A DNA stretch of 64,000 nucleotides. Origin: an uncultured Methanosarcinales archaeon. GTDB lineage: Archaea > Nanobdellota > Nanobdellia > Woesearchaeales > JAGVZT01. The position numbers and the translations under genes were made by a program. Positions 26,968 through 51,312 of the stretch are shown here, one piece after another. Location: positions 6,720 through 70,719 of the forward strand of contig CAYUHF010000007.1 in the NCBI GenBank assembly GCA_964444505.1, in the 5' to 3' direction. How positions within the stretch are numbered: position 1 is the first letter of the stretch; each line of letters opens with the position of its first letter. Below the pieces are notes generated by a model. The model had not been told where the DNA came from and did no database searches. It saw nothing but the letters and a program-made list of their open reading frames with translations.

Positions 26968-27738
26968 ATGATTGCCACTTATGATGAGATTGAAAAAGCA
27001 TCTGAGATTGTGTACAGAGTTTTTAATCATGCTGTTTTCACTGATCCTGATTTTTATTCTGATTCCTCCCGTGTTCCTGACTATTTGGTATTGACTGAGT
27101 TCAACCAAAACCCTCATGAAAGACTAGGTCAGTTTAAGAGCCCCACAATAGATAGATATCTTAAAGTCTTTCCAGCTGGCGGGGTTATGGGAGCAAAGAG
27201 TTCTATTGAACTTTGCGTTGATAATGCAGAGTCAGATGGAAATTGTACAATTGAAGATTATCTTGACATGTTTTACAGAGGACCATATGAAGAAGGTTGG
27301 GCTCTTGGGATCTCTCCAATCATTGTGTTTAAGGGTGAATGCATTGCACAGTGTGTACAAGTTGATTTTGAGGTCGGACCGGACCACTATTCTACTGTGA
27401 AAGAAATGCTTACATCAAGACACCAGGCAGACAAAGACCTATGTTTTCCAACCGAAGGACTTTTTGTGGTAAGTTCTACTGAAGGTATGCACTTTCACTC
27501 ATCATTGTATTTTCCACGACCTTCTGGTAACTCCTGTGTATCTCATGGGTATGGTACTTTTCTTCTTTTGAACCATGATGAGCTAAGGCTTGTGGATGAC
27601 AGACAGATTGGACACAATCTGAGATCTCTTCATGAAGAATGGCCTGAAAATAAATTACCAATCGGTCCTTCTGAACTGGGTTGTCTTAGAATTACGAGAA
27701 GCAAAATAAAACCAAGCATGCCAGAAATTATTGATTAG
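26968..27738 (+). CDS. hypothetical protein
   Basis: 256-aa ORF divergent from the TGase-like gene. Confidence 0.4.
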   Translation: MIATYDEIEKASEIVYRVFNHAVFTDPDFYSDSSRVPDYLVLTEFNQNPHERLGQFKSPTIDRYLKVFPAGGVMGAKSSIELCVDNAESDGNCTIEDYLDMFYRGPYEEGWALGISPIIVFKGECIAQCVQVDFEVGPDHYSTVKEMLTSRHQADKDLCFPTEGLFVVSSTEGMHFHSSLYFPRPSGNSCVSHGYGTFLLLNHDELRLVDDRQIGHNLRSLHEEWPENKLPIGPSELGCLRITRSKIKPSMPEIID

Positions 27739-28361
27739 GGTACTTCAATATAATGCTGGTTTTTTTCCCAGTTTTCCCACGGGATTTCTCCAAATTCACA
27801 TTCACTGCATGTCCAATCAAGATATATCCAGCCATCGTTTTTGTATCTTCTTGGGGCTTCATCAAGCTTTATTCGAACATATGCATGTCCATGAACAATT
27901 ACCAGCTGAGCATCAACACCTACAGCTTCCATCAAAGATGCAAGGAGTATTGAACCTGACTCACAGTCTCCGCCACCAGAGGACATAACTTTCACAGGAT
28001 GCTCAATATATTCTGTGCTTAATGGATCAGAGATGTACTGGATTCTGTCCCTTACAAAATAGTAGATTGCCTTTGCATAGCATATCTTGTTGTCCTCACA
28101 AGAGACTGATGCAATTTTATTTGCTGAATATTTAACTTCTGATGGGATTACTGCTGATCTTAAACCATCAACTTCTGAAAAGTTTTGGGAAGGGTCCAGA
28201 ACTTCACTTATCTCTGGAATGCTTGATGGAGATGGATTTTGTCCAATTCCATAATAGGGCACAATAGTTACTATAAGTATAAAAACAAGAATAAGTGCAA
28301 GCATAATCCTAATTGGATTTCTCCAGCTTTGGTCCTCTTGTTCAGACTCTTCCATATTCAT
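27735..28361 (-). CDS. membrane-anchored transglutaminase-like cysteine protease
   Basis: N-terminal TM segment plus a Cys-His-Asp core (GGDCESGSILLASLMEAVG..VIVHGHAYVRI..DWT). It lies 26 nt downstream of the giant gene on the same strand. Confidence 0.65.
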   Translation of the reverse strand: MNMEESEQEDQSWRNPIRIMLALILVFILIVTIVPYYGIGQNPSPSSIPEISEVLDPSQNFSEVDGLRSAVIPSEVKYSANKIASVSCEDNKICYAKAIYYFVRDRIQYISDPLSTEYIEHPVKVMSSGGGDCESGSILLASLMEAVGVDAQLVIVHGHAYVRIKLDEAPRRYKNDGWIYLDWTCSECEFGEIPWENWEKNQHYIEVP

Positions 28362-28387
28362 AGCATATCAAACAGAATTTAAAAGCC

Positions 28388-31300
28388 TTACTTAAAAACA
28401 TCGATAACGAGTTTAGTTGGCTTTCCTCTGAAAACAACTACTCTTACTTGTCTTACCAGATGTTCAACATCAGATGCTGCTGTGTCAACCACTCTTAGTT
28501 CTTGGGTTTCGTAGGGTTCTCCCTCACAGCAGATAATTTCATGTGTACTATTATATGCTCTTACCCATCCATCATTTTTGTTGTTGCAGATTCTTGTTGT
28601 ATTTGCATCAAAGAATTCACATCCAACCTTGCCGTTACATTCCCTATGACATATTCTGTCATTAATGTAAGTACAGTCTGATTCACATGGTTCAAATTCC
28701 CAGACTATTGTGAAGTTAATTTCTTTCACATCGAAGATTTCTACTTCTTGTTTTGTTACTGTATCTGACCTAAAGCCAATTTTTGATGCCATTAGGTCGT
28801 ATGTAGCATTAGCAATCACGTAGCTTTCATAATAACCTGAACCATTGGTTGTAACATTGTATCTATAAGTTACTTTCCTTACATCATCATAGCCTACAAA
28901 TTCCACAGTGGCATTTGGTACTCCCTGTCCTGTAGAGTTCTTGACCCAGCCAAAGAATACTGCATTTGTGTCGCCAAAGTGCCATTCACCAGGATCACAC
29001 AACTCCTGCCAGCCATCCCCGTCAATATCTGTGTAGATTTGATCGTGCAGATCATGCTGGTTGTATATTCTTATCCTGCACTCACCGTCAACCCACTGAC
29101 ATCTGTCGTCTTCATTACACTCTTTCATATCAATCCTAGGATTATCATTATCTTCATACTGTGAACATTCACTTGCTAACTGCTGTTCATCTAATTCGAG
29201 CTGTGCATAAACAATATCATAGTCTTTGTAGCACTTTCCTTCAAACACACAATCAGTTTCATTATCACAGCAGGCATTATCTGAATAATTTATCCTGTCC
29301 ATAAAAAATCCTTCAATAAGTGATTCTTTGCTTGTGCTTACTACTTCACGGAACCTAAATGTTTCTCCAAGATCATCACCACAGCATTCTGTTGATGTGC
29401 TCAGATCATATTCACCAAATGAGAAAGTCTCTCCATTTTGTGTCCAGTTCAAATCACAGAGTTGACATTGGGCACTACCACTATCACAATCATACCACCT
29501 GTCAAATCCTGGTTCGCACAATGCTATATTGTCATTTCCTGTCGGATTAAAGTTGTTTGCATTTTCGTTATCTTCATAACAGGCACCACTTACATTAACA
29601 CAATCATTCGTGTTATTGCAGCATCCATTTGTATTTGGGTCATCGGGCCACACCATTGAAATATCATTGTTGACATCTGCATTTCTTTTCAAATACTTGT
29701 ATGTCTCGTTAAGATCATCTCCACAACACTCATAGTCATCAAGAACATTTGTGTATTCGCCTACAAACTCACCTGCTCTTGTCCAATGTGCTTCAAGTCC
29801 TACTGTACCCAGTAGTGCATTGCATCCAGTACACTTGGCCATTTCATAATCACAATCAATCCACTGGTCACTTTCTAATGCCTCTCCACAATAAGCTACT
29901 CTGTCATAATCATCTGTATCATTAAGGAATCCTGCATTATTCTCCTGCACACATAGATTGTCTTTGTCCACACAGTTATTGTCTTCCCTGCAGCAAGCTT
30001 CTGTGTTGAGCTCCTTGTTGACAAATGCATTTGCCCCCCCAACATATTTTGTAAAGTTTTTGTAGTACTCAAATGAGTCATCTCCACAGCATCTGGGTGT
30101 GGTCAGGTCATAGTACTCTCCAACATTTGATTCTCCGGCAGTGACGGCATTGTGATCCGTATCAGGAGCATAAGTTCTATCACCATAAAGTTTTGGAGGA
30201 TTCTGTGGACCGCAAATATCTGCGCACCAGAAGTCCATAAAGTCAGCATCGTCACAGTCAAGCCAGGTTCCATTACCGTTTGAATCTAAGCCACTATAGC
30301 AATGTGAGTAAGTGTCATTACCTCCAATGTTCAGATTACCAGTTGTTGCTTCGATTATATCTGATTGACCTTCATTTTGAGTGTTTGACGAGTAGCAATT
30401 GCTTCCGTTCACACAGTCTGTCTGTGAATCACAGCAGGCATCTTCATTGTCATCAAATTCAATTTCGCTTAGTCCACTCACATGTTCTTCAAGTGATTCT
30501 TCATATCTGATAAACTCTGGAACGTCATCTCCGCAACATTCATCTCCTCCCACTTCTCCGCCTATCTGCCAGCCATAATCATTTTCTAAACAGTAATTCT
30601 CATCATCAATATCATACCATCCACCTTCATAGCACATCACTTCATGCTGTCCACCGTCTACCCAAATTGTAGTACTATTTTCAAAGCATTCTCCGTTGAA
30701 GACACAATCTGTTTCTTTATCACAGCATGCATCATCGTTAGTGTCAGTAACAATACTGGAATCTCCCTGATCTTGAACATCTCTGAATACATAATATTCT
30801 GAAAGATCATCACCACAGCATTCTGTTGATGTGCTGAGATCATATTCGCCAAATGAAGATGTCTCCCCATTTTCTGCATAGTCAAATCCACACTGGTTTT
30901 CACAGAAACTCTGTGAGCCGTCACAATCTCTCCATTCTCCTGAAACACACCTTTCTCCTGCTACTGTATCCAAGTTAACATCTAACATTGTGCCTGAGGC
31001 ATAGCAATCACCGTCAAATACACAATCTCCTGAATTATCACAACATGCCTCATCCCCACTATTTGATCCTCCAGTACAGTTCTCATTTGTTCGGTCATTG
31101 CACGTACTAGCTGCATAATCTCTACGGTAGTTGTATTCTTCATTTGCATCATCACCGCAACAACACATCTGACTGGCGTGGTCTCCTGAAGCAATGTTGC
31201 AGAAGTTGGGTCTGGTGTGACCAAAAGCATCATAGTAATATCCATCTTCTGATACTGCTTCTCCACCCACATTCCAGAAGTATGTGGGTTCGCATACACC

Positions 31301-34300
31301 TATTGCGTAATCGAGATTAAGCCAGCTCCCATCGTCTCCCTGACTTTCTGGCAGACAGAAATAATCTTCTCTTCCATCGTTATCATAATCAATATATTCT
31401 CCTGGATCATAGCAAATTCCATTGAAAACACATTTATCAGCGCCTGTACAGCAGGCATTATCTGTGGTATCATTCTGTGCTTTTCCATGGTCTTCTTCCT
31501 GCGGCATATTTGGCCTGAATAATCTGAAATAATTATAGTACTCGTCTTCATCATCACCACAGCAATTAAGTTGTCCTCCCCCAGCTGTCCAGTCTATACC
31601 CATATCACCTGCTGTTGTGTCACAGGTTGAATCACAGTATGACTGGAGTTCATCTGGATCCTGCCATCGTGCATTGCTGCAATAAGACTTGTGGCCTGTA
31701 CCAAAACCATGGCATTGCCCCTGTACAACACAATCACCAGTTGTATTAACACAGTCTGTTGCAGAGCTACAGCAAGCTTCGTCTGCCCCAGAACACCAAG
31801 CATTATTGGAATTGTCTGAATCATAGCATTCCACATAATTTTCAAAGAAATCATCACCACAACAGTTTGCGACGCCTGACTCAAATATCCAGGAAGTACT
31901 ATAACAACTGCTTCCCGGAGGACAAGCATCCATAAACTCATCTATATTATTATCAACCTGATCAGAAGGAACAAGTCCAGTCTCATTATCACAACATGCA
32001 GAGTCAGGAATTCCCCCATCCGTAAAGGTATCTGGATTGCACACTTGGTCTTCACACTGGCAAGTATCATAATCACATTCTTGGTAACCAGAACATGCTG
32101 TGCTTCCATCACATGTTGCAGTGCAATTCTCAAAAGTACATACTGCAGGCCCACAATCTGCTGCCATATCCCCAGTATCTTCTACACATGTACCGTAGTT
32201 TGGATAGTATTTATTTCCATCACATTCTGTATCACACCATCTGCAACCTGCTGTTGCACAATCAGTTGGATTATCAATTTCAGAACAAGTACCAGGGATA
32301 CATGTTATTGACTGGTTTTTATCTGTTCCATTCTGGTGCGAACGATCAATAGTCTCAGCATCATTACCACTATATACACCGCAAACAATATGTACTGTAT
32401 CCTGACCGTCACAATCTATTTGCTCATTATTGAAATATACATCATCATATGTTGCACTCCACGTATCATCTCCATCTTCCCAGCCCAGATCTTCGTCACC
32501 TGAACTATAAACACCATTCTGGTCTCTGTCAATGTAAGCAAAGATACTATCATATCCCTGACCTGATGGTGCTGTGGGGTCAACTGTACAGGTAATATCA
32601 ATATCACTACCTGATACAACTTCTGGTGCCGAGAGTGAGATATCAATTATTCCGACATCACATCCATCATCCCCGTGAATCCCGTCACGGTTATCATAGT
32701 CTGTTTCGCCATCTCCATCATTATCAATACCATCATTGCAGTTACCTGCGATGTGAGATTCCTCTGTCTGGCAGTGCGGATCCTCAAGATCAGTCAATCC
32801 GTCGCAGTCATTATCTATTCCATCATCACATGTTAATTCCCTATCCCATTCAGTCTGGCAGTGACCAGTAAGGTCAACACAATTACTTAAATCTGAACAG
32901 CATCTTTCAGGACCCAAACCAGCTGTCACATAAATCTCATCAACGTCATCTCCACAGCATTCAGTTTCACCTGGCTGATACTCTCCGTGGCCAAAATCTT
33001 CTCCTGATTCAACATAGCAGTCTATACCTGAACAGTCAGGGAGGTTTGTCCCGGAATCACAGTAAGCGCATGTAGTTGACGAGTTATCACAATCATACCA
33101 CTTGCCATCACCAGCTTCAGCTATACAGACTGCATCAGATTCTGAGTCACCAATACCAAGATGATATCCTATATTTAGTGCAGCATAACAATCACCATTA
33201 TAAACACAGTCATCAGTGTTGTCACAGCATGAATTATCTGTAGTAACATCTGCTGGACAAAACATTCCTGCTCCAGATGTGTGGCAATGCCTGTACTCAA
33301 AAAACTCATCTTGGTCATCACCACAGCAAAGTCCCTGTGTTCCTACACCAAACCCAATATCATAGCATGAACTTCCAGGTGGACAGTTTTCTGCAAAGTT
33401 TTCTATTGGCTGCGAAACATCCACGTTTGGATAGTATCCTGTTTCATTATCACAACATTGTTGGCCTGCGTCAGGGTCGCATTCCTCGTCTGTGCACAAG
33501 CAGGTATCAGTATCGCAGGTTGCAGGAAGTGTGCATCCTCCGCTCATACCACACCCGTCCACAATACACTTTCCTTGTGTACAAACTGGGTCTGCACATC
33601 CAGTGCTTGCATCCACACATGTAAGATAGTCTGGATAATATTTTGGTCCATCACACTCCTGATCACACCAAGTACATTGTGGATCTGCATTACAATCTCC
33701 CTCTTCAAGGTCTCCACACCCTTCCAAACAGGTAACTGTCTGCCACACGTCAGGACCGTTCTGGTAGGATCTATTATATTTTTCTCTGGAATCATTATAG
33801 ACACCACATGCAATATCCACACTCGGTGCACTTAGGCAGTTTATTGTTTCATTTCTGAAAACAACTTCATCATCATTCGGCCAGTAATCATCTGAATCCC
33901 ATGTAAAATCTGTATCTCCGGCGTCATATATTCCGTTTCCATTTCTGTCAATATACGCAAAGATACTATCATAACCTGTGCCTGCTGGAGCAGTTGGATT
34001 GACATTACATGTTATGTTAAGTTTTCTCCCAGAGATTACTTCTGTATCTGAAAGTGTGATTGAATCAATTCCGACAGGACAACCATCGTCTCCATGAGGA
34101 GATGGCCCACTAGCTCCCCTGTTTTGAGTGTCATAATCCCATTCTCCATCACAATCTGTATCATTACCGTCATTACACTGGCTCTCTTGCACACCAAACT
34201 CATCTCTGCAGAGGTTTAGGCTGTCAACACAGTTCTTACCATCCTGACAACATCTTGGGTCTCCAACTCCGTCCGAGACATAATTTTCATTATCATCATC

Positions 34301-37300
34301 TCCACAGCACTCCGAGGCAGTTCCAGAGTTGTATTCTCCAAATTGTGATGATTCTCCTCCCTGGACATAATCAAGACCACATAATGCCCCAGTACATGTT
34401 GTAGAATCAGCATCACAGTCCCTCCACTCGCCAGCAATACATATCGCACCAGGAATACTATCTGCATCCGGGTCACCTTTTGTATCTTCAATATAGCAGT
34501 CTCCACCATATACGCAATCATTCTCCCCACTGCAACAAAACTTATCTGAAGGATCTGAACCTCCTACACAGTTATTATCATAAATATCAGAGCATGCACT
34601 TCCTCCCTGATCAACCAAGTAGGTGAAATATTCTGAATCATCATCTCCGCAGCAAATTCCGTTTGATTTAATATTATAACAGGAAGTCCCTGGGGGACAG
34701 TTCTCTGCAAAGTTTTCTATTGGCTGCGAAACATCCACGTTTGGATAGTATCCTGTTTCATTATCACAGCACTGCGGGCTTGAATCAGGGTCGCATTCCT
34801 GATCCTCACACTGGCATGTATCATAGTCACATTCCTGATTGCCTGAACATGCTGTGCTTCCATCACATGTTGCAGTGCAATTCTCAAAAGTACATACTGC
34901 AGGCCCACAATCTGCTGCCATATCTCCGGTATCTTCAACACACATACCGTAGTTTGGATAGTATTTATTTCCATCACATTCTGTATCACACCATCGGCAA
35001 CCTGCTGTTGCACAGTCGACTGAGTTTTCAATTTCAGAACAAGTGCTTGGGATACATGTTATTGAGTGGGATTTATCTGTTCCATTCTGGTATGATCTGT
35101 CCCATGGTTCAGTTGGAGAGGAATATACTCCACAAACAACATGTACTGTATCCTGACCGTCGCAATCTATTTGCTCATTATTGAAATAAACTTCACCATA
35201 GGTCGGATCCCAAGTATCATCTCCATCTTCCCAGCTCAGATCCTCGTCACCTGAACTCCACACACCATTCTGATCCCTGTCAACATACGCAAAAATACTA
35301 TTATATCCTCTATCTTTTGGTGCTGTCGGATCAACTGTACAAGTAATGTCAATATCATTACCTGATACTACTTCTGCTGCCGAGAGTGAGATATCAATTA
35401 TTCCTACATCGCATCCATCATCTCCATGCTCAGGATCATTCATATTATCATAATCAGTCAAATCATCCCCGTCATTATCGATACCATCATTACAGTTACC
35501 TGCGATGTGAGATTCCTCTGTCAAGCAGTTTGGATCTTCATCGTCCGTCAGACCGTCACAGTCATTGTCAATATCATCATCACAATTCACACCCAGCGTT
35601 TCAGTACCAGATCTGCAATTGTTTGTTCCATCAACGCATGTATTCCCGTCTGCACAGCATCTGGGTTCACCAACTCCTGCTGTAATGTAATTCTCACCTG
35701 CATCGTCTTCACAACATTCCTCTTCGGCACCTGTGTCGTATTCACCAAATTGAACAGATTCACCACCATAAACATAGTTATAGTCACAGATTGTCTCGCA
35801 AGCATAATTATTTGAGTCACAATCCGACCACCTTCCAGGATTATCACCTGACAAATCCCAATCGTTACACCATTCACCCAGTACACCATCTCCGTCAATA
35901 TCTGCCATATCAAGATCATTATAACAAGTGCTCTCAAAGACACATTGTTGACTTTGAGGGCAACAAGTACCGTCTGTAACATCATCACTTTTTCCGACAC
36001 ACACAGGATTAGTTATGTCGTTGCATCCATTTGTGGCATATTGGTCATAGTAAACATAATATTCTTGGTTATCATCTCCACAGCAAGCTGCATTTCCTTC
36101 AAGAAATGTCCAATCTTCGCTATAACAACTACCAGACGAAGACGCAGGACATTGGTTGTCAAAAACACTTGGTTCATTATCAGTATTCATATTAGGTAAA
36201 TAACTTCCTTCACTATCACAGCAAGCTTGGCTTAAATCAGGATCACATGGTGTTGCTTCATAGCAGTTGCCACTGGCATCAACTATTTTATCTGACTCAT
36301 TACAACATCTGGCAGGGTTTACACCATCATTGATATAGTATTCGTTAGGGTCGTCACCACAGCATTCTTCTTCAGAATCAAAATTACATCCCAGGTTTTC
36401 ACACTCTGTCTTATCACTTAAAACTGAACAATCACCCATATTTGTACACTCATCTAAAAAACTGTCCCATGCACATCCCGCTTCACTTAAGCCATTACAG
36501 CAGGATAATGATCCTCCACAAGCAGCATAGCAATCAAATGTTCCAGAGCAACGCAATTCATATTCTCCATGGTCTGTTAATTCACCTGAATAAGCTACTC
36601 CTGTATTAACTCCTTCTGAGGCTCCCCACTCTTCACAATAATCATAGTCAGGATCTATCCAATATCTATCCTTACAATAGAAACTTTGAGATATTGAATT
36701 CCCATTGCAATTCATATCCTCTCCATATCTAAAAGTTGTATCACTAGGATAACAGCAACGTGGACCAACAATAGGATATGCACCCCCTATACAATCTGTC
36801 TCTGACTGACAGCAAGCAACACTATTGGTGTTGTGTACCTCAGAAGTATCATCCTCATCAGTGTAAGCCATATTATGTATAGCATAATCAAATAAACCAT
36901 CACAACAAACTGGTGAGCTAGCATTCACTATAATTTCAGTTTTTCCCCATTGGGCCCAGTCGTATCCTGTATCTCCCTCCCAGGAATTTCTTTCAGGATG
37001 TGTAGTAAACCAAAATCGTTGGATTGATCCAGCATAATTACTAAGATCTACAGCAAAAGGTACCCACCCTGTATCATTTACTAAAAGTCCACTCCATACA
37101 ACGCTATCAGATACGCTATTGAGATCCATTTTTGAAGTGGTGCTTATTCTAATAGTGAACCAAACACCCCCGCTATTTCTGGAACCATCGGCTATACCCG
37201 CATAGCCCACAAGATATGCATCATCCGGAACAAATTTATCGTATATATGTACTGTTGTTCCAGTTCCTACTGCCGTATTCCATGAAGGATGTGCCTGTCT

Positions 37301-38692
37301 TGCGACCATTGCCTCACCCCCCACAGTCGGATATCCAATATTCTGCTGCTGACATACATCCCAGAACATTCCCTCATTAGTTTTTGTCCCATTTCTTCCG
37401 GGTTTTGGATCTGAATAGAAATCACTGTATACATCTCCTGATGACTTAAAGAATTCATTAGCATCATCTCCACAACACCCTGTTTCCAAAAGAATGGAGT
37501 CTCCCGCTCTTATTGCAATGTCATCAAAATAAATTGGCATTCCATCCGCATTGTCGCCATCTGTAACTGCTCTTATTCTGACAGTACCACTAGAATCAGA
37601 TGTAAAATTACATTGCACATATTCCCACTGGTTGTATACGCCAGCAGTGGTTCCTGCATGACACTCATATACTGCATCATGAAGATCAAGATAAGCATTT
37701 CCTGGATAGAAAAGATCAGTCTTTTCTCTGTATATATAGCCTGTGAGATTGAACATTGTATTTTTTGGTACATCAACTTCCTGCCAGGTGCTTACCCCTG
37801 GACCTGTTCCTGTCCAACTGCTCTTCAAAGAGTAACTTCCTGAATGGGCCCTCTCATCAGACCTAGTATGATCAGCATGCTCATTCCAATCTTCAGCATC
37901 GTTACTTGATCCTCTTTCAAATCCTGAGTTTTTAACCACTCCTCTGTATTCTCCATGTGGTGTCCTTTCCCCACTCTGGACTCCCGCGGGACTACCACAA
38001 TATGCATTTGGATAGTCCCAATCCGAATTTGTACAGGCACCACTATCCCAGGAATCACAACTTGGATTACACCAGTTCTTGAACCAATTGTTTGAGTCAC
38101 AGTCAAGCCAGGTCGCTGGCTGGGAATCTGGGGCGGATGGACTTTGATCATAGAGACAATATGCTAGATTATCATTACGACCTGGATGAAGCCCCACATG
38201 AATAAAATCACCGAATTGTGAAAAACTGCTGCCTGATGGATGAGGATCTCCTTCCTTATCAAGGCACTCCGCACTTAAACTAACTCTGGTATCAGCGTGG
38301 TTACAAAAACCTATTGTCTGATATCCCCACTTGTCAATGTGAGCACATCTGTTAACAAAAAAGCCAGAGAATATAGTGTCATTGTCACAGTCCTCCGGAT
38401 AATCTGGATTCGAGGGATTACAACCATCCTCACAGCTTCTCGCATCATAAAAGCCAGGCTCTCCAATTACCTGTGTACATGTTTGCCCGTCTGCCTCATC
38501 AAAAGTACCACATGCATTACATGTGCATGAATCTTCTCCTCGACTGCATTCAAAATAATTTTCTCCCCATGAAGGGGGTTGGTAACAGCAAACAACAGTT
38601 TCCCCAGCAACTTGTAAGACTAAAAATAGACATAATACACTAATTATCCAAAAATGCTTCCTCATATCCAGCCTCTTTTTTATTTTTTTCAA
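28388..38692 (-). CDS. giant secreted cysteine-rich surface protein (3434 aa)
   Basis: The start shows a Sec signal peptide. A CBM4/9-like jelly-roll domain (GFERGS..W..AHSGSYSLK) follows. There are more than 10 CCGDD...CC...CY modules and three ~460-aa tandem repeats. A C-terminal carboxypeptidase-regulatory-like domain is present. The protein has no TM anchor other than the signal peptide. Confidence 0.85.
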   Translation of the reverse strand: MKKIKKRLDMRKHFWIISVLCLFLVLQVAGETVVCCYQPPSWGENYFECSRGEDSCTCNACGTFDEADGQTCTQVIGEPGFYDARSCEDGCNPSNPDYPEDCDNDTIFSGFFVNRCAHIDKWGYQTIGFCNHADTRVSLSAECLDKEGDPHPSGSSFSQFGDFIHVGLHPGRNDNLAYCLYDQSPSAPDSQPATWLDCDSNNWFKNWCNPSCDSWDSGACTNSDWDYPNAYCGSPAGVQSGERTPHGEYRGVVKNSGFERGSSNDAEDWNEHADHTRSDERAHSGSYSLKSSWTGTGPGVSTWQEVDVPKNTMFNLTGYIYREKTDLFYPGNAYLDLHDAVYECHAGTTAGVYNQWEYVQCNFTSDSSGTVRIRAVTDGDNADGMPIYFDDIAIRAGDSILLETGCCGDDANEFFKSSGDVYSDFYSDPKPGRNGTKTNEGMFWDVCQQQNIGYPTVGGEAMVARQAHPSWNTAVGTGTTVHIYDKFVPDDAYLVGYAGIADGSRNSGGVWFTIRISTTSKMDLNSVSDSVVWSGLLVNDTGWVPFAVDLSNYAGSIQRFWFTTHPERNSWEGDTGYDWAQWGKTEIIVNASSPVCCDGLFDYAIHNMAYTDEDDTSEVHNTNSVACCQSETDCIGGAYPIVGPRCCYPSDTTFRYGEDMNCNGNSISQSFYCKDRYWIDPDYDYCEEWGASEGVNTGVAYSGELTDHGEYELRCSGTFDCYAACGGSLSCCNGLSEAGCAWDSFLDECTNMGDCSVLSDKTECENLGCNFDSEEECCGDDPNEYYINDGVNPARCCNESDKIVDASGNCYEATPCDPDLSQACCDSEGSYLPNMNTDNEPSVFDNQCPASSSGSCYSEDWTFLEGNAACCGDDNQEYYVYYDQYATNGCNDITNPVCVGKSDDVTDGTCCPQSQQCVFESTCYNDLDMADIDGDGVLGEWCNDWDLSGDNPGRWSDCDSNNYACETICDYNYVYGGESVQFGEYDTGAEEECCEDDAGENYITAGVGEPRCCADGNTCVDGTNNCRSGTETLGVNCDDDIDNDCDGLTDDEDPNCLTEESHIAGNCNDGIDNDGDDLTDYDNMNDPEHGDDGCDVGIIDISLSAAEVVSGNDIDITCTVDPTAPKDRGYNSIFAYVDRDQNGVWSSGDEDLSWEDGDDTWDPTYGEVYFNNEQIDCDGQDTVHVVCGVYSSPTEPWDRSYQNGTDKSHSITCIPSTCSEIENSVDCATAGCRWCDTECDGNKYYPNYGMCVEDTGDMAADCGPAVCTFENCTATCDGSTACSGNQECDYDTCQCEDQECDPDSSPQCCDNETGYYPNVDVSQPIENFAENCPPGTSCYNIKSNGICCGDDDSEYFTYLVDQGGSACSDIYDNNCVGGSDPSDKFCCSGENDCVYGGDCYIEDTKGDPDADSIPGAICIAGEWRDCDADSTTCTGALCGLDYVQGGESSQFGEYNSGTASECCGDDDNENYVSDGVGDPRCCQDGKNCVDSLNLCRDEFGVQESQCNDGNDTDCDGEWDYDTQNRGASGPSPHGDDGCPVGIDSITLSDTEVISGRKLNITCNVNPTAPAGTGYDSIFAYIDRNGNGIYDAGDTDFTWDSDDYWPNDDEVVFRNETINCLSAPSVDIACGVYNDSREKYNRSYQNGPDVWQTVTCLEGCGDLEEGDCNADPQCTWCDQECDGPKYYPDYLTCVDASTGCADPVCTQGKCIVDGCGMSGGCTLPATCDTDTCLCTDEECDPDAGQQCCDNETGYYPNVDVSQPIENFAENCPPGSSCYDIGFGVGTQGLCCGDDQDEFFEYRHCHTSGAGMFCPADVTTDNSCCDNTDDCVYNGDCYAALNIGYHLGIGDSESDAVCIAEAGDGKWYDCDNSSTTCAYCDSGTNLPDCSGIDCYVESGEDFGHGEYQPGETECCGDDVDEIYVTAGLGPERCCSDLSNCVDLTGHCQTEWDRELTCDDGIDNDCDGLTDLEDPHCQTEESHIAGNCNDGIDNDGDGETDYDNRDGIHGDDGCDVGIIDISLSAPEVVSGSDIDITCTVDPTAPSGQGYDSIFAYIDRDQNGVYSSGDEDLGWEDGDDTWSATYDDVYFNNEQIDCDGQDTVHIVCGVYSGNDAETIDRSHQNGTDKNQSITCIPGTCSEIDNPTDCATAGCRWCDTECDGNKYYPNYGTCVEDTGDMAADCGPAVCTFENCTATCDGSTACSGYQECDYDTCQCEDQVCNPDTFTDGGIPDSACCDNETGLVPSDQVDNNIDEFMDACPPGSSCYSTSWIFESGVANCCGDDFFENYVECYDSDNSNNAWCSGADEACCSSATDCVNTTGDCVVQGQCHGFGTGHKSYCSNARWQDPDELQSYCDSTCDTTAGDMGIDWTAGGGQLNCCGDDEDEYYNYFRLFRPNMPQEEDHGKAQNDTTDNACCTGADKCVFNGICYDPGEYIDYDNDGREDYFCLPESQGDDGSWLNLDYAIGVCEPTYFWNVGGEAVSEDGYYYDAFGHTRPNFCNIASGDHASQMCCCGDDANEEYNYRRDYAASTCNDRTNENCTGGSNSGDEACCDNSGDCVFDGDCYASGTMLDVNLDTVAGERCVSGEWRDCDGSQSFCENQCGFDYAENGETSSFGEYDLSTSTECCGDDLSEYYVFRDVQDQGDSSIVTDTNDDACCDKETDCVFNGECFENSTTIWVDGGQHEVMCYEGGWYDIDDENYCLENDYGWQIGGEVGGDECCGDDVPEFIRYEESLEEHVSGLSEIEFDDNEDACCDSQTDCVNGSNCYSSNTQNEGQSDIIEATTGNLNIGGNDTYSHCYSGLDSNGNGTWLDCDDADFMDFWCADICGPQNPPKLYGDRTYAPDTDHNAVTAGESNVGEYYDLTTPRCCGDDSFEYYKNFTKYVGGANAFVNKELNTEACCREDNNCVDKDNLCVQENNAGFLNDTDDYDRVAYCGEALESDQWIDCDYEMAKCTGCNALLGTVGLEAHWTRAGEFVGEYTNVLDDYECCGDDLNETYKYLKRNADVNNDISMVWPDDPNTNGCCNNTNDCVNVSGACYEDNENANNFNPTGNDNIALCEPGFDRWYDCDSGSAQCQLCDLNWTQNGETFSFGEYDLSTSTECCGDDLGETFRFREVVSTSKESLIEGFFMDRINYSDNACCDNETDCVFEGKCYKDYDIVYAQLELDEQQLASECSQYEDNDNPRIDMKECNEDDRCQWVDGECRIRIYNQHDLHDQIYTDIDGDGWQELCDPGEWHFGDTNAVFFGWVKNSTGQGVPNATVEFVGYDDVRKVTYRYNVTTNGSGYYESYVIANATYDLMASKIGFRSDTVTKQEVEIFDVKEINFTIVWEFEPCESDCTYINDRICHRECNGKVGCEFFDANTTRICNNKNDGWVRAYNSTHEIICCEGEPYETQELRVVDTAASDVEHLVRQVRVVVFRGKPTKLVIDVFK
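31300..35700 (-). repeat. three ~1.38-kb tandem intragenic repeats; copies 1 and 3 are near-identical
   Basis: The DNA string acagttacctgcgatgtgagattcctctgt (encoding TEESHIAGNC) recurs at ~32740 and ~35490. Antisense ORFs 31942..32154 and 34717..35031 are near-identical. Confidence 0.7.
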
Positions 38693-38785
38693 ACAATTGC
38701 CTTTAAATATTTTCCGATTTAGAATAGTTATTTAGCAGGATACAAATAATTATATATGAATTTCCCAGATTATATTTTCTAGTTT

Positions 38786-39466
38786 TTGGGTGGTAGATTG
38801 ACTATTGACAGAGTATTCGAGATTTGTTTTGAGGGACCTATTGCATCAGGTAAAACAACCTGCGCCAGACATCTTAAAAAAAACTTGGGTGCCGGCGGAT
38901 TTAGATTAGTGCATGAAGACCCATATGAGAATGAGTTCTTTGGGGATTATTACAGGGCTATGGTGGCTGTGCGTGCAGGAAAACCCGTTCCCTCAGATAT
39001 TGAAGAAGGAATATTTTACATGGCCCAGGACAGGTTTCTTGACTTGACTGTAGAGAGAGAAAGTGCAGGCAATAGTGTGAATAGGGTATCAGACCGGCAT
39101 GTATGGGCTGACATTAATATCTTTGCTGAGGGACTTATAGAAAGAGGTTTGTTTTCACCAGAACACGCCTGCATGTACAGAAAAAAAGCATCAACTATAA
39201 ATATTAATTATCCTGACTTTTTGGTATATCTTGCCACAAGTGATCTGGTTTGTTACCATAGGGCACAAAACCGAAGCAGAGATGAAGAGATGAATGTTTC
39301 ATTTTCGCATTTCGAGTTTATTGGTCAGCGGTACAGGGAGCTGATGCCCACATATCCGGGAAGAGTTTTAACACTTCCAACTGATGAACTTAATCTTGAA
39401 TCTGAGCCTGATGATATCAACTATATGCTTGAACAAGTAGCAGGAGCTCTGGCAAAATTAAATTGA
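38786..39466 (+). CDS. deoxynucleoside kinase (dNK family)
   Basis: P-loop FEGPIASGKTT plus VSDRHVWAD (ERS/DRS-type motif); 226 aa. Confidence 0.7.
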   Translation: MGGRLTIDRVFEICFEGPIASGKTTCARHLKKNLGAGGFRLVHEDPYENEFFGDYYRAMVAVRAGKPVPSDIEEGIFYMAQDRFLDLTVERESAGNSVNRVSDRHVWADINIFAEGLIERGLFSPEHACMYRKKASTININYPDFLVYLATSDLVCYHRAQNRSRDEEMNVSFSHFEFIGQRYRELMPTYPGRVLTLPTDELNLESEPDDINYMLEQVAGALAKLN

Positions 39467-40809
39467 TCAAGATTGGAAAAGATCCGTATCTAAAAAAAGA
39501 AATACACAAAGTTCTCTTTGATGACCGTCCCAAGGTTCAGTACTTTAACCAGTCTGATGTTTATCTTGGCCATCCGAGTTCAAATATTGCTGTTGCATTT
39601 ATTTACACCTGGAAAGATGACCACCCTCCAGAACATGTCAAAAAGTTCATGGAAAAACTCTCAAACTACGCATATATTTCTGGTTTCTGGCGAACCACAA
39701 ATGGTGCCAGGTATGTGTTTTCTAATATTCTTGCAAATCCTAATGTGAACAAGCTTTTTGTTTTTGTGTTTGACTACAAGGACAATGGTCATGCTCTTGT
39801 GAATGCCTTGAAAAACTTCTGGAAAAACGGGATAAGAAATGACGGCACAATAAAGGGCTCAATTGCACAAAACCCCAAGTTTGAGCAGATACCTCATGAT
39901 GCACTCCAGAGGATAAGAAAACAGTGTGATCTGGTTGTGGTTGATAAGATAGACAAAAAAGAGTTTGGCAAGATTGAATATATGGTGAAAAACTCAATTA
40001 ATGAGCCAAAAAATCCTGTCAATCTGGAAGAGTGTGAGCTTTCGCCTGTGTTTATTTCAAATGTTGTTGATAAAAAAATTCTTTATGATGATGGAGCCAG
40101 GTTTAAGGAACCATACCACATTGATCTGTCACAGAATGCCTCAACTGTGGAATACAGGGAGAGAAATCTTTCAAATGTTCTTGGCCAGTCTATCCAGGCA
40201 GAAACCCTTGATGAAGCACTGAAATCTGCTGTTGCCTTTATTTTCAAGAATGGTTCTGTTCATGTTGATGACAGGGGGATTATTACAATTGAGTGCAGAA
40301 GCTTTACAGTTACTATTACTGATGCTCTATCAAAAGTGCCTGATGGTTTTTCAAATGGCTATATTAAAAATTATGTTGAAGAGTTTATGGAAGGGCCCAA
40401 AAACCCTATGGAGTACAATTATCACGAGAGAATCTTCAAGCGATGGGGAAATCAGGTAGAAAGAGTTGTTGAGATGCTTGAGGATCATTCTTCAACACGG
40501 AGGATGGTTATTTCTCTTTGGGACCAGAAAAGTGATCTTGAGAATCCGTGTCCCCCTTGCCTTGATATTATCTGGGTGTGCATTCGAAATGACAAGCTGG
40601 AGATGCATGTTTTGTTCAGGAGTCATCATATAGCTACTGTTACAGAGGATGGAAAACTGATGAAAGGCGAGGGTGCTTTTGTTCCAAATATTATTGCACT
40701 TGTTAATCTCCAGAATTACATTGCCAAGAAACTGGAAGTGGAGAGAGGTGCTTTTGTTTTGTCTGAGTTTTCGGGTCATTTATACACAAGCAAGGTGAAA
40801 AATGGGTAA
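39463..40809 (+). CDS. thymidylate synthase-fold enzyme (ThyA/dUMP hydroxymethylase family) with ~210-aa N-terminal domain of unknown function
   Basis: The C-terminal half aligns to the ThyA core: RRMVISLWDQ..NPCPPCLDIIWVC..LFRSHHIA..GAFVPNIIALVNL..GHLY. This corresponds to SRR..W, PPCH, YQRSxD, PFNIASYALL and GDAHIY. Start and stop overlap the neighbouring genes. Confidence 0.6.
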   Translation: MIKIGKDPYLKKEIHKVLFDDRPKVQYFNQSDVYLGHPSSNIAVAFIYTWKDDHPPEHVKKFMEKLSNYAYISGFWRTTNGARYVFSNILANPNVNKLFVFVFDYKDNGHALVNALKNFWKNGIRNDGTIKGSIAQNPKFEQIPHDALQRIRKQCDLVVVDKIDKKEFGKIEYMVKNSINEPKNPVNLEECELSPVFISNVVDKKILYDDGARFKEPYHIDLSQNASTVEYRERNLSNVLGQSIQAETLDEALKSAVAFIFKNGSVHVDDRGIITIECRSFTVTITDALSKVPDGFSNGYIKNYVEEFMEGPKNPMEYNYHERIFKRWGNQVERVVEMLEDHSSTRRMVISLWDQKSDLENPCPPCLDIIWVCIRNDKLEMHVLFRSHHIATVTEDGKLMKGEGAFVPNIIALVNLQNYIAKKLEVERGAFVLSEFSGHLYTSKVKNG

Positions 40810-41461
40810 ACTAATTGTTCTAGAGGGATTGGATGGTTCTGGTAAGCTGACGCAGCTGAAGATGCTGAAAGAGAGACTTATTAAAGATGGTTATCCTGTT
40901 GACACTTTTGACTTTCCCCAGTATGATTCTTTTTTTGGTGCTCTTGTGGGTAAATACCTGCGGGGTGAATTTGGTTCTATGGTTGAACTTCCAGTTGAGA
41001 TTCCGACTCTGTTGTATGCTCTTGACAGGTACTATGTGAGGGATGATATTGAAGAGTCTCTTGAGGAAAATATTGTTCTTCTTAATAGATACACTCCTTC
41101 AAATACCTGTTTTCAGGGTGCAAAGCTTAAGGGTAAGGACCGAGACAAGTTTATCAAGTGGGTTGGTGCTGTCGAGGCAAGGCTTCCACGACCTGACCTT
41201 GTGCTGTTTCTTGATGTTCCAAGATATATTGCAAGAAATCTAATTGGAAACAAGGATCTTAGAAAGTACCTGAATGGAAAAAAGCAGGATATTCATGAGA
41301 AAAATGATCCTTACCAGGAAGAGGTTGAGAGTCTTTACAGAAGACTTGTGAGGGAGAGGAAAAACTGGATCGGTATCAAATGTGTTGAGTATGACCTACT
41401 GCTAAAGGTGGAGGAAATTCATGATAAAATATGGAAGGTAGTAAAACGGGAGTTAGGGTAG
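40802..41461 (+). CDS. tmk: thymidylate kinase
   Basis: IVLEGLDGSGKLTQ P-loop, ALDRYY (DRY motif) and an LNRYTPS lid. Confidence 0.8.
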   Translation: MGKLIVLEGLDGSGKLTQLKMLKERLIKDGYPVDTFDFPQYDSFFGALVGKYLRGEFGSMVELPVEIPTLLYALDRYYVRDDIEESLEENIVLLNRYTPSNTCFQGAKLKGKDRDKFIKWVGAVEARLPRPDLVLFLDVPRYIARNLIGNKDLRKYLNGKKQDIHEKNDPYQEEVESLYRRLVRERKNWIGIKCVEYDLLLKVEEIHDKIWKVVKRELG

Positions 41462-42111
41462 AATTTGTTGGGCCAAAGTGCAGCGGAAAGAGTGTTCTTC
41501 TGAAGGCACTAAAATGCTGGTCATTGCAGCAAGGGCTAGGAATAGTTGACATGGAGAGCTATTGGAAGAGATATCAAAGGTATCCTGAGTTTGATGATTC
41601 ATTTGCTAGTTTATATGATGTTGTTTTGACTGTGGAACCAACATGGGTTGGTGCTGGCAGATCTATAAGGGAGAGATTTGGCGGTGAGTACCAGGAGGTT
41701 TTGCTTCCTGGCAAGAGTGCTCAGGACAGAGGAGATCATTATGGTAGTCTTATAGAACCTGCTCTTGAAAATGGTTTTTATGTTTTCCAGGAAGGCGGAC
41801 TTGCAGAGGATATAGTAAGGTGGGGTGTAGATGTTCTTGATTTTCAGGGAAACCAGATATCAATGCAAAGACATCCTGATTATGTTTTCTTGACAAGGTG
41901 CAGTCCGATTACTGCTGCGCTAAGGATAGACAAGGAGACATGTTCAAACAGAGGCACTTACAGTATTGATGAGATTGTTAAAGAGCATCAGGCATACAGG
42001 ATGGTTGAAGAAGCTGGTATTTATGACAATCTTATTGTTTTTGACACTGAAGATTCAGTTCTCAATACCAAAATGAAGATTATTGAAATGTGGGAAAGCT
42101 TGGTTGAGTGA
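41431..42111 (+). CDS. Tmk-like P-loop nucleotide kinase (divergent paralog A)
   Basis: GPKCSGKS P-loop plus VEPTWVGAGRSIRE, which matches KEPTQNYVGRAISE in 42695..43372. Confidence 0.5.
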   Translation: MEGSKTGVRVEFVGPKCSGKSVLLKALKCWSLQQGLGIVDMESYWKRYQRYPEFDDSFASLYDVVLTVEPTWVGAGRSIRERFGGEYQEVLLPGKSAQDRGDHYGSLIEPALENGFYVFQEGGLAEDIVRWGVDVLDFQGNQISMQRHPDYVFLTRCSPITAALRIDKETCSNRGTYSIDEIVKEHQAYRMVEEAGIYDNLIVFDTEDSVLNTKMKIIEMWESLVE

Positions 42112-50679: not shown

Positions 50680-51312
50680 ATGAGGTACAAAGTGGATGGA
50701 GTAGTATTTGATTGCTGGAATACTCTTTTTCATACTTATTATGACAGACACCATTATGACATTGTCAGGAAAAGATTGGATATATCCTATTCTAAGTATA
50801 TGAAGAAATTTGAAGAAAAAATGATGTTAAGAAGGATTGATGATTACGAGCAGTCTATTAGGGATTTCTTCACTGATCTCGGTATTGATTTTTCAGAGAA
50901 TGATGTTATTGAGTTTGCAGGAATAAACATGAAAAGACTTAGCACAGCAAGACCTTATCCTGAAACAAACAAGATTATTTGTAAGTTAAATGCATTCAAG
51001 CTTGGCATTATCACCAATACACAGAAAATTGCATTTGAAAAAATCAGAAAATTCAAAATCATCAAGGAATTTGATGTAATAATAACCTCTTTTGAAAATG
51101 GACTACTTAAACCAGACAGGCGGATATTTGAACTCATGATAGACAAGATGGAAACTGACAACCTGTTGATGGTGGGTGACAATCTTCATGATGATGTCCT
51201 GGCTGCTGAATCATGTGGTTTTAAAGCCATTCTAATTGACAGGAAAAACAGATACCCTGGGTATTCAAAAAGAATCAAAAACCTGAGTCAGTTGGTAAGC
51301 ATACTTGAATAA
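50680..51312 (+). CDS. HAD-superfamily hydrolase
   Basis: N-terminal FDCWNTLF (motif I-like) and C-terminal VGDNLHDD (motif IV). Confidence 0.6.
   Translation: MRYKVDGVVFDCWNTLFHTYYDRHHYDIVRKRLDISYSKYMKKFEEKMMLRRIDDYEQSIRDFFTDLGIDFSENDVIEFAGINMKRLSTARPYPETNKIICKLNAFKLGIITNTQKIAFEKIRKFKIIKEFDVIITSFENGLLKPDRRIFELMIDKMETDNLLMVGDNLHDDVLAAESCGFKAILIDRKNRYPGYSKRIKNLSQLVSILE

What the first reader, a model, noticed from the sequence alone, without database searches (positions are those of the whole stretch)
28388..38692. 10.3-kb gene for a 3434-aa secreted protein built from a novel CCGDD...CC...CY cysteine module
- A single ORF encodes a Sec-signal-peptide protein with about 9% Cys and no TM anchor.
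- Domain order:
  - An N-terminal CBM4/9-like jelly-roll carbohydrate-binding domain
  - At least 11 copies of a ~55-70-aa module: CCGDDx[NE]EY..., then a second CC pair, then C[VY]xxGxCY
  - Three long tandem repeats
  - A C-terminal carboxypeptidase-regulatory-like (prealbumin-fold) domain
- The CCGDD module does not correspond to any domain family I know.
- In a small-genome, likely symbiotic archaeon, this is a prime candidate for a host- or substrate-attachment surface protein.
Basis: partly seen in the sequence, partly recalled or inferred. Interest (0 to 1): 0.75.

Follow-up and report, generated by a model that had tools for sequence, protein, structure and literature searches.

The report
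Giant cysteine-rich archaeal surface protein
An uncultured archaeon encodes a 3,425-residue secreted protein built mostly from a disulfide-type repeat module of about 115 residues that no domain library or solved structure matches, and this module turns out to be widespread in tiny symbiotic-type (DPANN) archaea, where it probably forms the stalk of a cell-surface attachment fibre.

Summary
The ORF is real: 28388..38692(-), with a likely start at ATG 38665, giving 3,425 aa, 8.3% Cys and pI ~4. It has a signal peptide and no TM segment.

It occurs 16 times rather than "at least 11".

The module is not unique to this gene. A profile finds 472 protein clusters in 1.84 billion representatives. A DNA pattern gives 50 profile-confirmed loci in reference genomes, 48 of them labelled archaeal, mostly DPANN.

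Cysteine counts per module are even in 88% of 246 modules, and cysteines are lost in pairs, which fits disulfides.

- The C-terminal prealbumin-fold domain is confirmed. It belongs to a larger conserved C-terminal domain that always sits at the protein end and also occurs on unrelated secreted proteins, so it is a likely anchor or sorting domain.
- The N-terminal "CBM4/9" call is not supported by any profile search.

Best reading: a disulfide-stapled, acidic surface fibre or adhesin. This function is inferred, not shown.

The parts
28388..38665 (-). Coding sequence of the 3,425-aa protein, from ATG 38665 to stop codon 28388-28390. The mechanical ORF starts at TTG 38692.
38672..38675 (-). GAGG Shine-Dalgarno-like element six nt upstream of the ATG. 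A TTTAAA (TATA-like) box lies at 38702-38707.
   Evidence: read directly from the sequence, function inferred
38603..38665 (-). Signal peptide (residues 1-21, MRKHFWIISVLCLFLVLQVAG).
   Evidence: hydropathy 3.0 and n/h/c layout read by eye, no predictor was run
37961..38602 (-). N-terminal Cys-rich region (residues 22-235). It ends in a second-half module element (WLDCDSNNWFKNWCNPSC...GERTPHGEY). Apart from that element (residues ~118-240, 37% identical to P0003), it has no homologues in my data.
37478..37960 (-). No family is assigned; a beta-rich jelly-roll is possible but unverified.
   Evidence: no Pfam hit at E<=10, no PDB sequence hit
36365..37477 (-). Module 1 (residues 397-767), split by an inserted domain of about 230 aa with no family assigned, followed by extra Cys-rich sequence.
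36224..36364 (-). Module 2, short form (CCGDDPNEYY...RCC...C).
34772..36223 (-). Long repeat 1 (residues 815-1298). It contains a CCDxExG..CPxGxSCY element, a full module, a short module, CDDxIDNDCDG acidic Cys loops, an Ig-like stretch and a PSI-like Cys-rich stretch.
33458..34771 (-). Long repeat 2 (residues 1299-1736).
31997..33457 (-). Long repeat 3 (residues 1737-2223), 75-84% identical to repeat 1.
31865..31996 (-). Fourth copy of the CCDNETG...CPPGSSCY element (residues 2224-2267), which opens the tandem module array.
29216..31864 (-). Head-to-tail array of modules 9-16 (residues 2268-3150). Module 11 (30785-31168) is the copy that was modelled.
28391..29035 (-). Conserved C-terminal domain (residues 3211-3425). 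It has three parts: a transthyretin-like sandwich (Pfam CarboxypepD_reg, 28706-28951), a Cys-rich part (CxxDCT..C...CxGxxGCxF..C..GW..N.T..I.CC) and a terminal hairpin (VRQVRVVVFRGKPTKLVIDVFK-COOH).
27735..28361 (-). Next gene on the same strand, 26 nt downstream: a 208-aa protein with an N-terminal TM segment and a transglutaminase-like (Cys-protease fold) domain. A functional link to the giant gene is possible but not shown. It was not found next to relatives in the short loci available.

Best explanation
The gene encodes a Sec-exported, highly acidic, 375-kDa cell-surface fibre (an adhesin-like protein) of a DPANN-type archaeon.

Its shaft is a string of 16 copies of an undescribed, beta-rich module of about 115 residues. 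Each module has eight core cysteines (two vicinal CC pairs plus four single Cys) that form four disulfides; optional extra pairs bring the count to five to seven. A conserved acidic cluster (GDDxxE, WxDxD) may bind Ca2+. Three longer repeats interleave these modules with Ig-like and acidic Cys-loop segments.

The unique N-terminal 770 residues would be the distal, specificity-determining tip. The conserved C-terminal domain (transthyretin-like sandwich, Cys-rich knot and terminal beta-hairpin) would hold the protein on the producer's envelope or direct its sorting.

Shown here: the ORF, the module family and its distribution, the lack of any library or fold match, the cysteine parity and co-loss, the prealbumin fold, and the portability and strictly terminal position of the C-terminal domain.

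Inferred: the disulfides themselves, Ca2+ binding, the N-out/C-anchored orientation, and attachment as the function.
For: Export and lack of an anchor: signal-peptide-like N-terminus and no TM segment. Most family members show the same layout.

The module family is real:
- The profile of 10 window modules finds 472 clusters at E<=1e-3 and 249 at E<=1e-10 among 1.84e9 representatives. These proteins reach 6,834 aa.
- 50 of 55 genome loci found by a DNA pattern are confirmed by the profile. Of these, 48 are labelled archaeal, mostly Woese-, Pace-, Nano-, Aenigmat- and Altiarchaeia.
- Source names include Ca. Woesearchaeota and Ca. Aenigmarchaeota.

The module is not in any library: Pfam and NCBIfam give nothing on this protein or on 9 relatives, and the PDB profile search gives nothing.

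Disulfide logic: 217 of 246 modules have an even Cys count (8, 10, 12 or 14 per period). Cysteines are lost together: columns 42-66 (r 0.91), 36-48, 74-85, and 81 with the CC of the next module.

Extracellular company: relatives carry beta-propeller/NHL, cohesin, Big, fn3 and PKD domains and a subtilase.

The C-terminal domain:
- It is present at the extreme C-terminus of 16 other module proteins.
- In a metagenome scan, 33 of 34 confirmed copies end 0-7 residues before the stop codon.
- More than 10 of these ORFs have no CCGDD module, and their passenger regions include disintegrin repeats and a NosD/beta-helix.

Assembly is sound: internal DNA repeats are at most 89% identical.
Against: - There is no experimental or expression evidence.
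- No binding domain was identified in the tip. The CBM call failed in profile searches.
- Disulfide connectivity could not be read, because model coordinates are not returned. Four of the five AF2 models are only 77-80 pLDDT.
- Many hosts of this family live in anoxic habitats, where extracellular disulfides need explaining.
- The C-terminal domain has no demonstrated ligand. Only its sandwich matches known structures.
- The organism's lifestyle is unknown. Its own contig was not found in the reference collections.
- A few module genes lie in bacterial contexts, so the family is not strictly archaeal or DPANN.
Confidence: 0.55

Rival explanations
1. It is a structural envelope component (S-layer-like coat or sheath protein) rather than an adhesin. 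The repeats would build a wall, and the C-terminal domain would insert into or bind the membrane-proximal layer.
Against: The protein is a singleton with no close orthologue (at most 52% identity over about 150 aa), whereas main envelope proteins are usually conserved within a lineage. Family architectures are extremely variable, which is typical of adhesins and variable surface proteins. The SlaB similarity is confined to a generic beta-sandwich.
Confidence: 0.15
2. It is a scaffold for extracellular enzyme or substrate capture, a cellulosome-like display or polymer-binding protein, rather than a host-cell adhesin.
For: Relatives combine the module with cohesin, subtilase S8, PKD and beta-propeller domains. 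One protein carrying the C-terminal domain has a dockerin-like Ca-binding segment; this was read by eye in the L115 ORF and was not a Pfam hit. The window also encodes a glycogen-debranching-type enzyme.
Against: Pfam finds no cohesin, dockerin, CBM or enzyme domain in this protein.
Confidence: 0.15
3. The cysteines bind metals rather than forming disulfides. Candidates are Fe-S or Zn sites, metallothionein-like sequestration, or an HdrB-type CCG cluster site.
For: There is a CCG motif, very high Cys plus Asp content, and many carriers come from anoxic, metal-rich habitats. The CDDxIDNDCDG loops resemble motifs annotated as metal-binding (from memory, not tested).
Against: The protein has a signal peptide and extracellular partner domains. 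Even Cys parity and pairwise co-loss fit disulfides. Pfam CCG (PF02754) and MopE-type models did not hit. AF2 packs the module without a cofactor at pLDDT 93.
Confidence: 0.08
4. It is an assembly or gene-calling artefact: a chimeric or collapsed repeat region, or a fusion of several genes.
For: The gene is highly repetitive and sits in a metagenome-type contig. No identical or near-identical copy exists elsewhere.
Against: The frame stays open for 10.3 kb. The repeats have diverged (at most 89% DNA identity). The architecture is coherent from signal peptide to a C-terminal domain that in 33 of 34 metagenome copies ends within 7 residues of the stop codon. Relatives of 3-7 kaa have the same build.
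Confidence: 0.03

Closest known systems
Disulfide-rich extracellular repeat modules (EGF-like, VWC, TIL, fibronectin type I, LDL-receptor class A)
Giant surface proteins of DPANN archaea, such as the SPEARE proteins of Nanohaloarchaeum antarcticus (PMC6642349; domain content recalled from memory) and the large extracellular murein-transglycosylase proteins of Pace- and Woesearchaeota (PMC8204110)
   Same: They are multi-thousand-residue secreted proteins in small-celled archaea and are proposed to mediate contact with hosts.
   Different: No protease, endonuclease, laminin-G or lytic transglycosylase domain was detected here. This protein is built on a different, Cys-rich module.
Giant repeat adhesins of bacteria (RTX/BIg-type such as LapA, SiiE, MpIBP; from general knowledge)
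   Same: The logic is the same: a cell-proximal anchor region, a long Ca2+-rigidified repeat shaft and a distal ligand-binding tip. All are acidic.
   Different: The repeats there are Ig-like and Cys-free. Export is by T1SS with a C-terminal secretion signal, and retention is through an N-terminal plug. Here export is by Sec with a putative C-terminal anchor.
Portable C-terminal sorting or anchor domains (T9SS CTD, PGF-CTERM/archaeosortase, S-layer homology domains)
   Same: The conserved domain sits strictly at the C-terminus and is shared by secreted proteins with unrelated passenger regions.
   Different: There is no TM helix or PGF motif, so it is not archaeosortase-type. At about 200 aa with a Cys-rich knot it is much larger than a T9SS CTD. 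No sorting machinery was identified.
Carboxypeptidase regulatory-like / transthyretin-like domain (PF13620)
   Same: Residues 3239-3320 match above the Pfam cut-off and superpose at 1.6 A on the human CPD domain.
   Different: Here it is only the first third of a larger conserved C-terminal unit.

Membership tests
CarboxypepD_reg / prealbumin-fold domain (PF13620) | Match to the Pfam profile above the gathering score | tested here: met
   38.9 bits (cut-off 32.3), E 1.1e-9, profile positions 4-81 of 82. On the whole protein: 34 bits.
CarboxypepD_reg / prealbumin-fold domain (PF13620) | Seven-stranded transthyretin-like beta-sandwich | tested here: met
CBM4/9 carbohydrate-binding module (PF02018) | Match to the family profile | tested here: not met
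   Residues 230-400 scanned alone against Pfam at E<=10 gave 0 families. The whole protein also gave none.
CBM4/9 carbohydrate-binding module (PF02018) | Jelly-roll fold with a ligand cleft | not tested
There was no PDB sequence hit.
Known Cys-rich extracellular repeats (EGF, VWC, TIL, LDL-A, PSI, Fn1, Pfam Cys_rich_* families) | Profile match of the CCGDD module | tested here: not met
   No Pfam or NCBIfam hit on this protein or on 9 relatives. The PDB profile search gave only one hit, E 1.3 to an unrelated viral protein.
Known Cys-rich extracellular repeats (EGF, VWC, TIL, LDL-A, PSI, Fn1, Pfam Cys_rich_* families) | Structural superposition on a solved domain | tested here: not met
HdrB-type CCG domain (PF02754) | CXnCCGXmCXXC profile match in a cytoplasmic or membrane redox enzyme | tested here: not met
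   No Pfam hit. The protein has a signal peptide and extracellular partner domains.
SPEARE-type DPANN giant proteins | Serine protease, adhesion (laminin-G-like) and restriction-endonuclease domains (definition from memory) | tested here: not met
   Pfam finds none of these domains in the protein.
CCGDD-module family (defined here) | Profile match with CCGDDxxE, CCx5C, CxxGxWxDxD and GEY landmarks, in tandem, in a signal-peptide protein | tested here: met
   833 bits in 13 stretches. 246 full modules from 122 proteins share the Cys columns.
Archaeosortase / PGF-CTERM anchored proteins | C-terminal PGF motif, TM helix and basic tail | tested here: not met
   The C-terminus is ...RGKPTKLVIDVFK. 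The hydropathy maximum in the last 50 aa is 0.66.

The most novel reading that the evidence does not exclude
The CCGDD module and the portable C-terminal domain together mark an unrecognised surface-display system, mainly of DPANN archaea with a few bacterial-context carriers. In this reading, a dedicated C-terminal anchor or sorting domain attaches diverse passenger proteins to the cell. A new disulfide/Ca2+-stabilised fold serves as the universal stalk of their host-attachment fibres. This would give a sequence handle for finding the contact machinery of uncultured episymbionts.
Probability: 0.3. Interest if true: 0.72.

Novelty: new variant of a known kind. Interest (0 to 1): 0.55.

Why it matters
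How DPANN archaea attach to hosts or surfaces is largely unknown, and most of their lineage-specific extracellular proteins have no annotation (PMC8204110).

A defined module (a profile finding 472 clusters) and a defined C-terminal domain would turn a mass of "hypothetical proteins" into a recognisable class of surface fibres. They would also give targets for immunolabelling and cryo-ET in enrichment cultures.

They also raise a concrete biochemical question: how organisms with minimal genomes, many from anoxic habitats, make dozens of extracellular disulfides. The module would further be a candidate new fold for structural work.

Tried and rejected
- Word-indexed homology search with the whole protein found only itself. 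With 10 modules it found one fragment. The exhaustive HMM search was needed.
I used hand-made degenerate DNA patterns instead.
- A metagenome scan with the N-terminal 749 aa found no relatives.
- Exact look-ups of the giant protein and of the thermosome gave no encoding contig. The organism's name and sample therefore remain unknown, and its contig is not among the GTDB species representatives.
- A full-length alignment of 43 relatives for a batch Pfam scan failed.
- Literature searches for 'CCGDD' and for cysteine-rich DPANN surface proteins found no description of the module.
- No homologue of the downstream transglutaminase-like gene was found in the genome-collection loci L001-L056 (at most 8 kb each; L001 20 kb) that carry the module.
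- Rejected readings: HdrB-type CCG Fe-S domain, SPEARE membership, PGF-CTERM anchoring and an assembly artefact. Reasons are given under the rival explanations and the membership tests.
- Five of the 55 genome pattern hits (Pelagicoccus, two MAGs labelled bacterial, one Patescibacteria, one Nanoarchaeia) were not confirmed by the profile and are treated as chance.
Full report
**1. The observation**

The minus strand carries one open frame from 38692 to 28388 (3,434 codons from a TTG). Ten codons in there is an ATG (38665). It has a GAGG six nt upstream and a TTTAAA box about 40 nt upstream. The resulting 3,425-aa product is identical to a protein held once in the 5.8-billion-protein collection (NCBI source, 74.8-kb contig).

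The protein is 8.3% Cys and 13.1% Asp, with 686 acidic against 144 basic residues, pI about 4 and mass 375 kDa. It begins with a classical n/h/c signal-peptide layout and has no later hydrophobic segment.

The DNA copies of its internal repeats are at most 89% identical, so a collapsed or chimeric assembly is unlikely.

The flanking genes are ordinary archaeal housekeeping genes: thermosome, AMP phosphorylase, GluRS, ValRS, PFOR, and a dNK / MtrA-like-ThyA / Tmk nucleotide cluster. No tRNA or Rfam feature lies in the window.

**2. Anatomy**

There are 16 CC[GE]DD motifs. Aligning the ten complete copies shows that the true period is about 115 aa (range 95-150). Its layout is CCGDDxxEYY, a variable loop, (A)CCxxxxDCVxxGxCY, a loop, CxxGxWxDCDxxxxxCxxxC, a loop, GGExxxFGEY, and about six residues to the next CCGDD (A1).

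Modules 2, 4, 6 and 8 are short forms. Module 1 is split by an insert of about 230 aa.

Residues 815-1298, 1299-1736 and 1737-2223 are three long tandem repeats. Each contains one full and one short module plus acidic CDDxIDNDCDG loops, an Ig-like stretch and a PSI-like Cys-rich stretch. None of these extra segments has a Pfam match, even at E<=10. Modules 9-16 follow head to tail.

The last 215 residues form a separate conserved domain (see section 5).

**3. Is the module known?**

- Pfam-A (2025 copy) finds only CarboxypepD_reg in the whole protein.
- NCBIfam finds nothing.
- Nine relatives scanned against Pfam show various extracellular domains but never a model covering the module.
- A profile of 75 modules finds nothing meaningful in PDB sequences.
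- With that alignment, the best AlphaFold2 model of one period has mean pLDDT 93.1 and pTM 0.85; the other four models have mean pLDDT 77-80. The fold is mostly beta with one short helix.
- Foldseek against the whole PDB gives nothing below E = 7.9.
- The AFDB library was not available.
- Full-text searches found no description.

As far as these tools reach, the module is an undescribed domain family with no solved structural counterpart.

**4. Is the module private to this gene?**

No. The profile of the ten window modules, run exhaustively over 1.84 billion representative proteins, finds 472 clusters at E<=1e-3, 249 at E<=1e-10 and 43 at E<=1e-30. Proteins reach 6,834 aa and carry up to 17 copies. 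Most have an N-terminal signal-peptide-like segment, 6-12% Cys and no C-terminal TM helix.

A degenerate DNA pattern for CCGDDxxE-(22-32 aa)-CCx5C hit 55 places in the 185,579-species genome collection. It hits the window 4 times against 0 in shuffles. Of the 55 places, 50 are confirmed by the profile. Of those 50, 48 are labelled archaeal:
- Woesearchaeota, Pacearchaeota, Nanoarchaeota/Nanoarchaeia, Aenigmatarchaeota (including a 1.05-Mb complete chromosome) and Altiarchaeia.
- Many third-party MAGs labelled 'uncultured Methanosarcinales' or 'uncultured archaeon'. I did not verify these labels.

Two confirmed loci are labelled bacterial (a Saccharibacteria MAG and a Deltaproteobacteria MAG). 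One JGI contig of 288 kb carries a module gene among clearly bacterial genes (SecG, bacterial IF-2, TsaB).

The particular protein in the window has no close orthologue. The best local identities are at most 52% over about 150 aa. The first 700 residues are essentially unique: the only matches are to a module-like stretch at residues ~118-240 (37% identical to P0003) and to a stretch at ~807-895 just beyond them.

**5. The C-terminal domain**

It is, however, only the first third of a conserved unit of about 200 aa. After the sandwich comes a Cys-rich part (CxxDCT..C...CxGxxGCxF..C..GW..N.T..I.CC) and then a terminal hairpin that ends the protein.

Sixteen other module proteins end with this unit. 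A DNA pattern for its Cys motif found 63 metagenome loci, and 34 are confirmed by the profile. In 33 of these the domain ends 0-7 residues before the stop codon. More than ten of the ORFs carrying it have no CCGDD module at all. Their passenger regions include disintegrin-type repeats and a NosD/right-handed beta-helix.

A strictly C-terminal domain shared by secreted proteins with unrelated passengers is the signature of a sorting or anchoring domain. That role is an inference.

**6. Cysteine logic**

Among 246 full modules from 122 proteins, the number of cysteines per period is even in 217 (8, 10, 12 or 14). Where a conserved cysteine is missing, a specific partner is usually missing too: columns 42 and 66 (r 0.91), 36 and 48, the optional pair 74/85, and column 81 with the CC of the following module.

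This fits four core disulfides plus optional extra ones, with one bridge tying each module to the next. That would make a stiff rod. I could not read the connectivity from the model because coordinates are not returned.

The nearly invariant acidic residues (GDDxxE, WxDxD) and the DxDxDG-type loops suggest Ca2+ binding by analogy with cbEGF and LDL-A modules. This was not tested.

**7. Interpretation**

The best-supported reading (confidence about 0.55) is a Sec-exported, disulfide-stapled, acidic surface fibre. It would have a unique distal N-terminal region, a shaft of CCGDD modules and long repeats, and a C-terminal anchor or sorting domain. It would work like the giant repeat adhesins of bacteria and the giant surface proteins proposed for DPANN host contact.

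Rivals:
- An envelope or S-layer-like structural protein (0.15).
- A scaffold for extracellular enzymes or polymer binding (0.15). Relatives carry cohesin, subtilase and PKD domains.
- Metal binding rather than disulfides (0.08).
- An assembly artefact (0.03).

The N-terminal 'CBM4/9' assignment is not supported by profile or PDB sequence searches. It remains an untested possibility.

**8. Novelty and score**

A giant secreted repeat protein in a DPANN-type archaeon is a known kind of thing. The building block and the C-terminal domain are not described in the libraries or papers I could search, and the module's predicted fold has no PDB neighbour. I rate it a new variant of a known kind, with interest 0.55.

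The module is one more domain of unknown function among many. The function is inferred. One of the four domain calls failed.

It remains above average because the family is large, taxonomically focused and now precisely defined. The portable C-terminal domain also offers a testable handle on how these organisms display surface proteins.

Noticed in passing
window 28391-29035 (-); also loci L057-L119, e.g. L115:730-3864, L057:6163-7878, L086:530-1762: The last ~200 aa form a portable C-terminal domain: a transthyretin-like sandwich, a Cys-rich knot and a terminal hairpin. In 33 of 34 confirmed metagenome copies it ends within 7 residues of the stop codon. It also occurs on proteins without CCGDD modules, whose passengers include disintegrin repeats and a NosD beta-helix. 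It is a possible undescribed anchor or sorting domain.
   Followed up: partly
window 27735-28361 (-): A 208-aa membrane-anchored transglutaminase-like (Cys-protease fold) protein starts 26 nt after the giant gene's stop, on the same strand. It may be co-transcribed and could process or cross-link the fibre. No homologue was found in the short module-gene loci of other genomes.
   Followed up: partly
L001:9491-10471 (JGI contig Ga0207193_1000013, 288 kb); L047; L048: A CCGDD-module gene sits among clearly bacterial genes (SecG, bacterial IF-2, TsaB, SBP_bac_5). Two confirmed loci are labelled Saccharibacteria and Deltaproteobacteria. The module is therefore not strictly archaeal. It may be shared between DPANN and small-celled bacteria, or the bins may be mislabelled.
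   Followed up: partly
window 38786-42111 (+): Diverging from the giant gene is a nucleotide-salvage cluster. It holds a deoxynucleoside kinase, a 448-aa ORF with an MtrA-like N-terminal part and a partial thymidylate-synthase C-terminal part, a thymidylate kinase and an unassigned 226-aa ORF.
   Followed up: no
window 9285-10670, 11297-13120, 51288-52919, 57431-59329 (all -): Four ORFs of 461-632 aa have no Pfam match at E<=1e-5. They carry neither the CCGDD module nor the C-terminal domain.
   Followed up: no
window 28001-38000: The giant gene stands out in composition: GC 0.41-0.43 against 0.34-0.40 in the flanks, and GC skew -0.22 to -0.28 on the plus strand. The Asp/Gly/Glu/Cys-rich coding strand probably explains this, rather than foreign origin.
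   Followed up: no
loci L002, L004-L008, L012, L021, L029, L030, L033, L034, L041-L043, L046: Many third-party (TPA) MAGs that carry module genes are titled 'uncultured Methanosarcinales archaeon'. Given the otherwise DPANN distribution, these labels look doubtful. I did not check them.
   Followed up: no
P0097; window 33458-36223 (-): The non-module part of the long repeats (the Ig-like plus PSI-like Cys-rich stretch) has 32-39% identical counterparts in another family member, P0097. It may therefore be a second undescribed domain pair.
   Followed up: no
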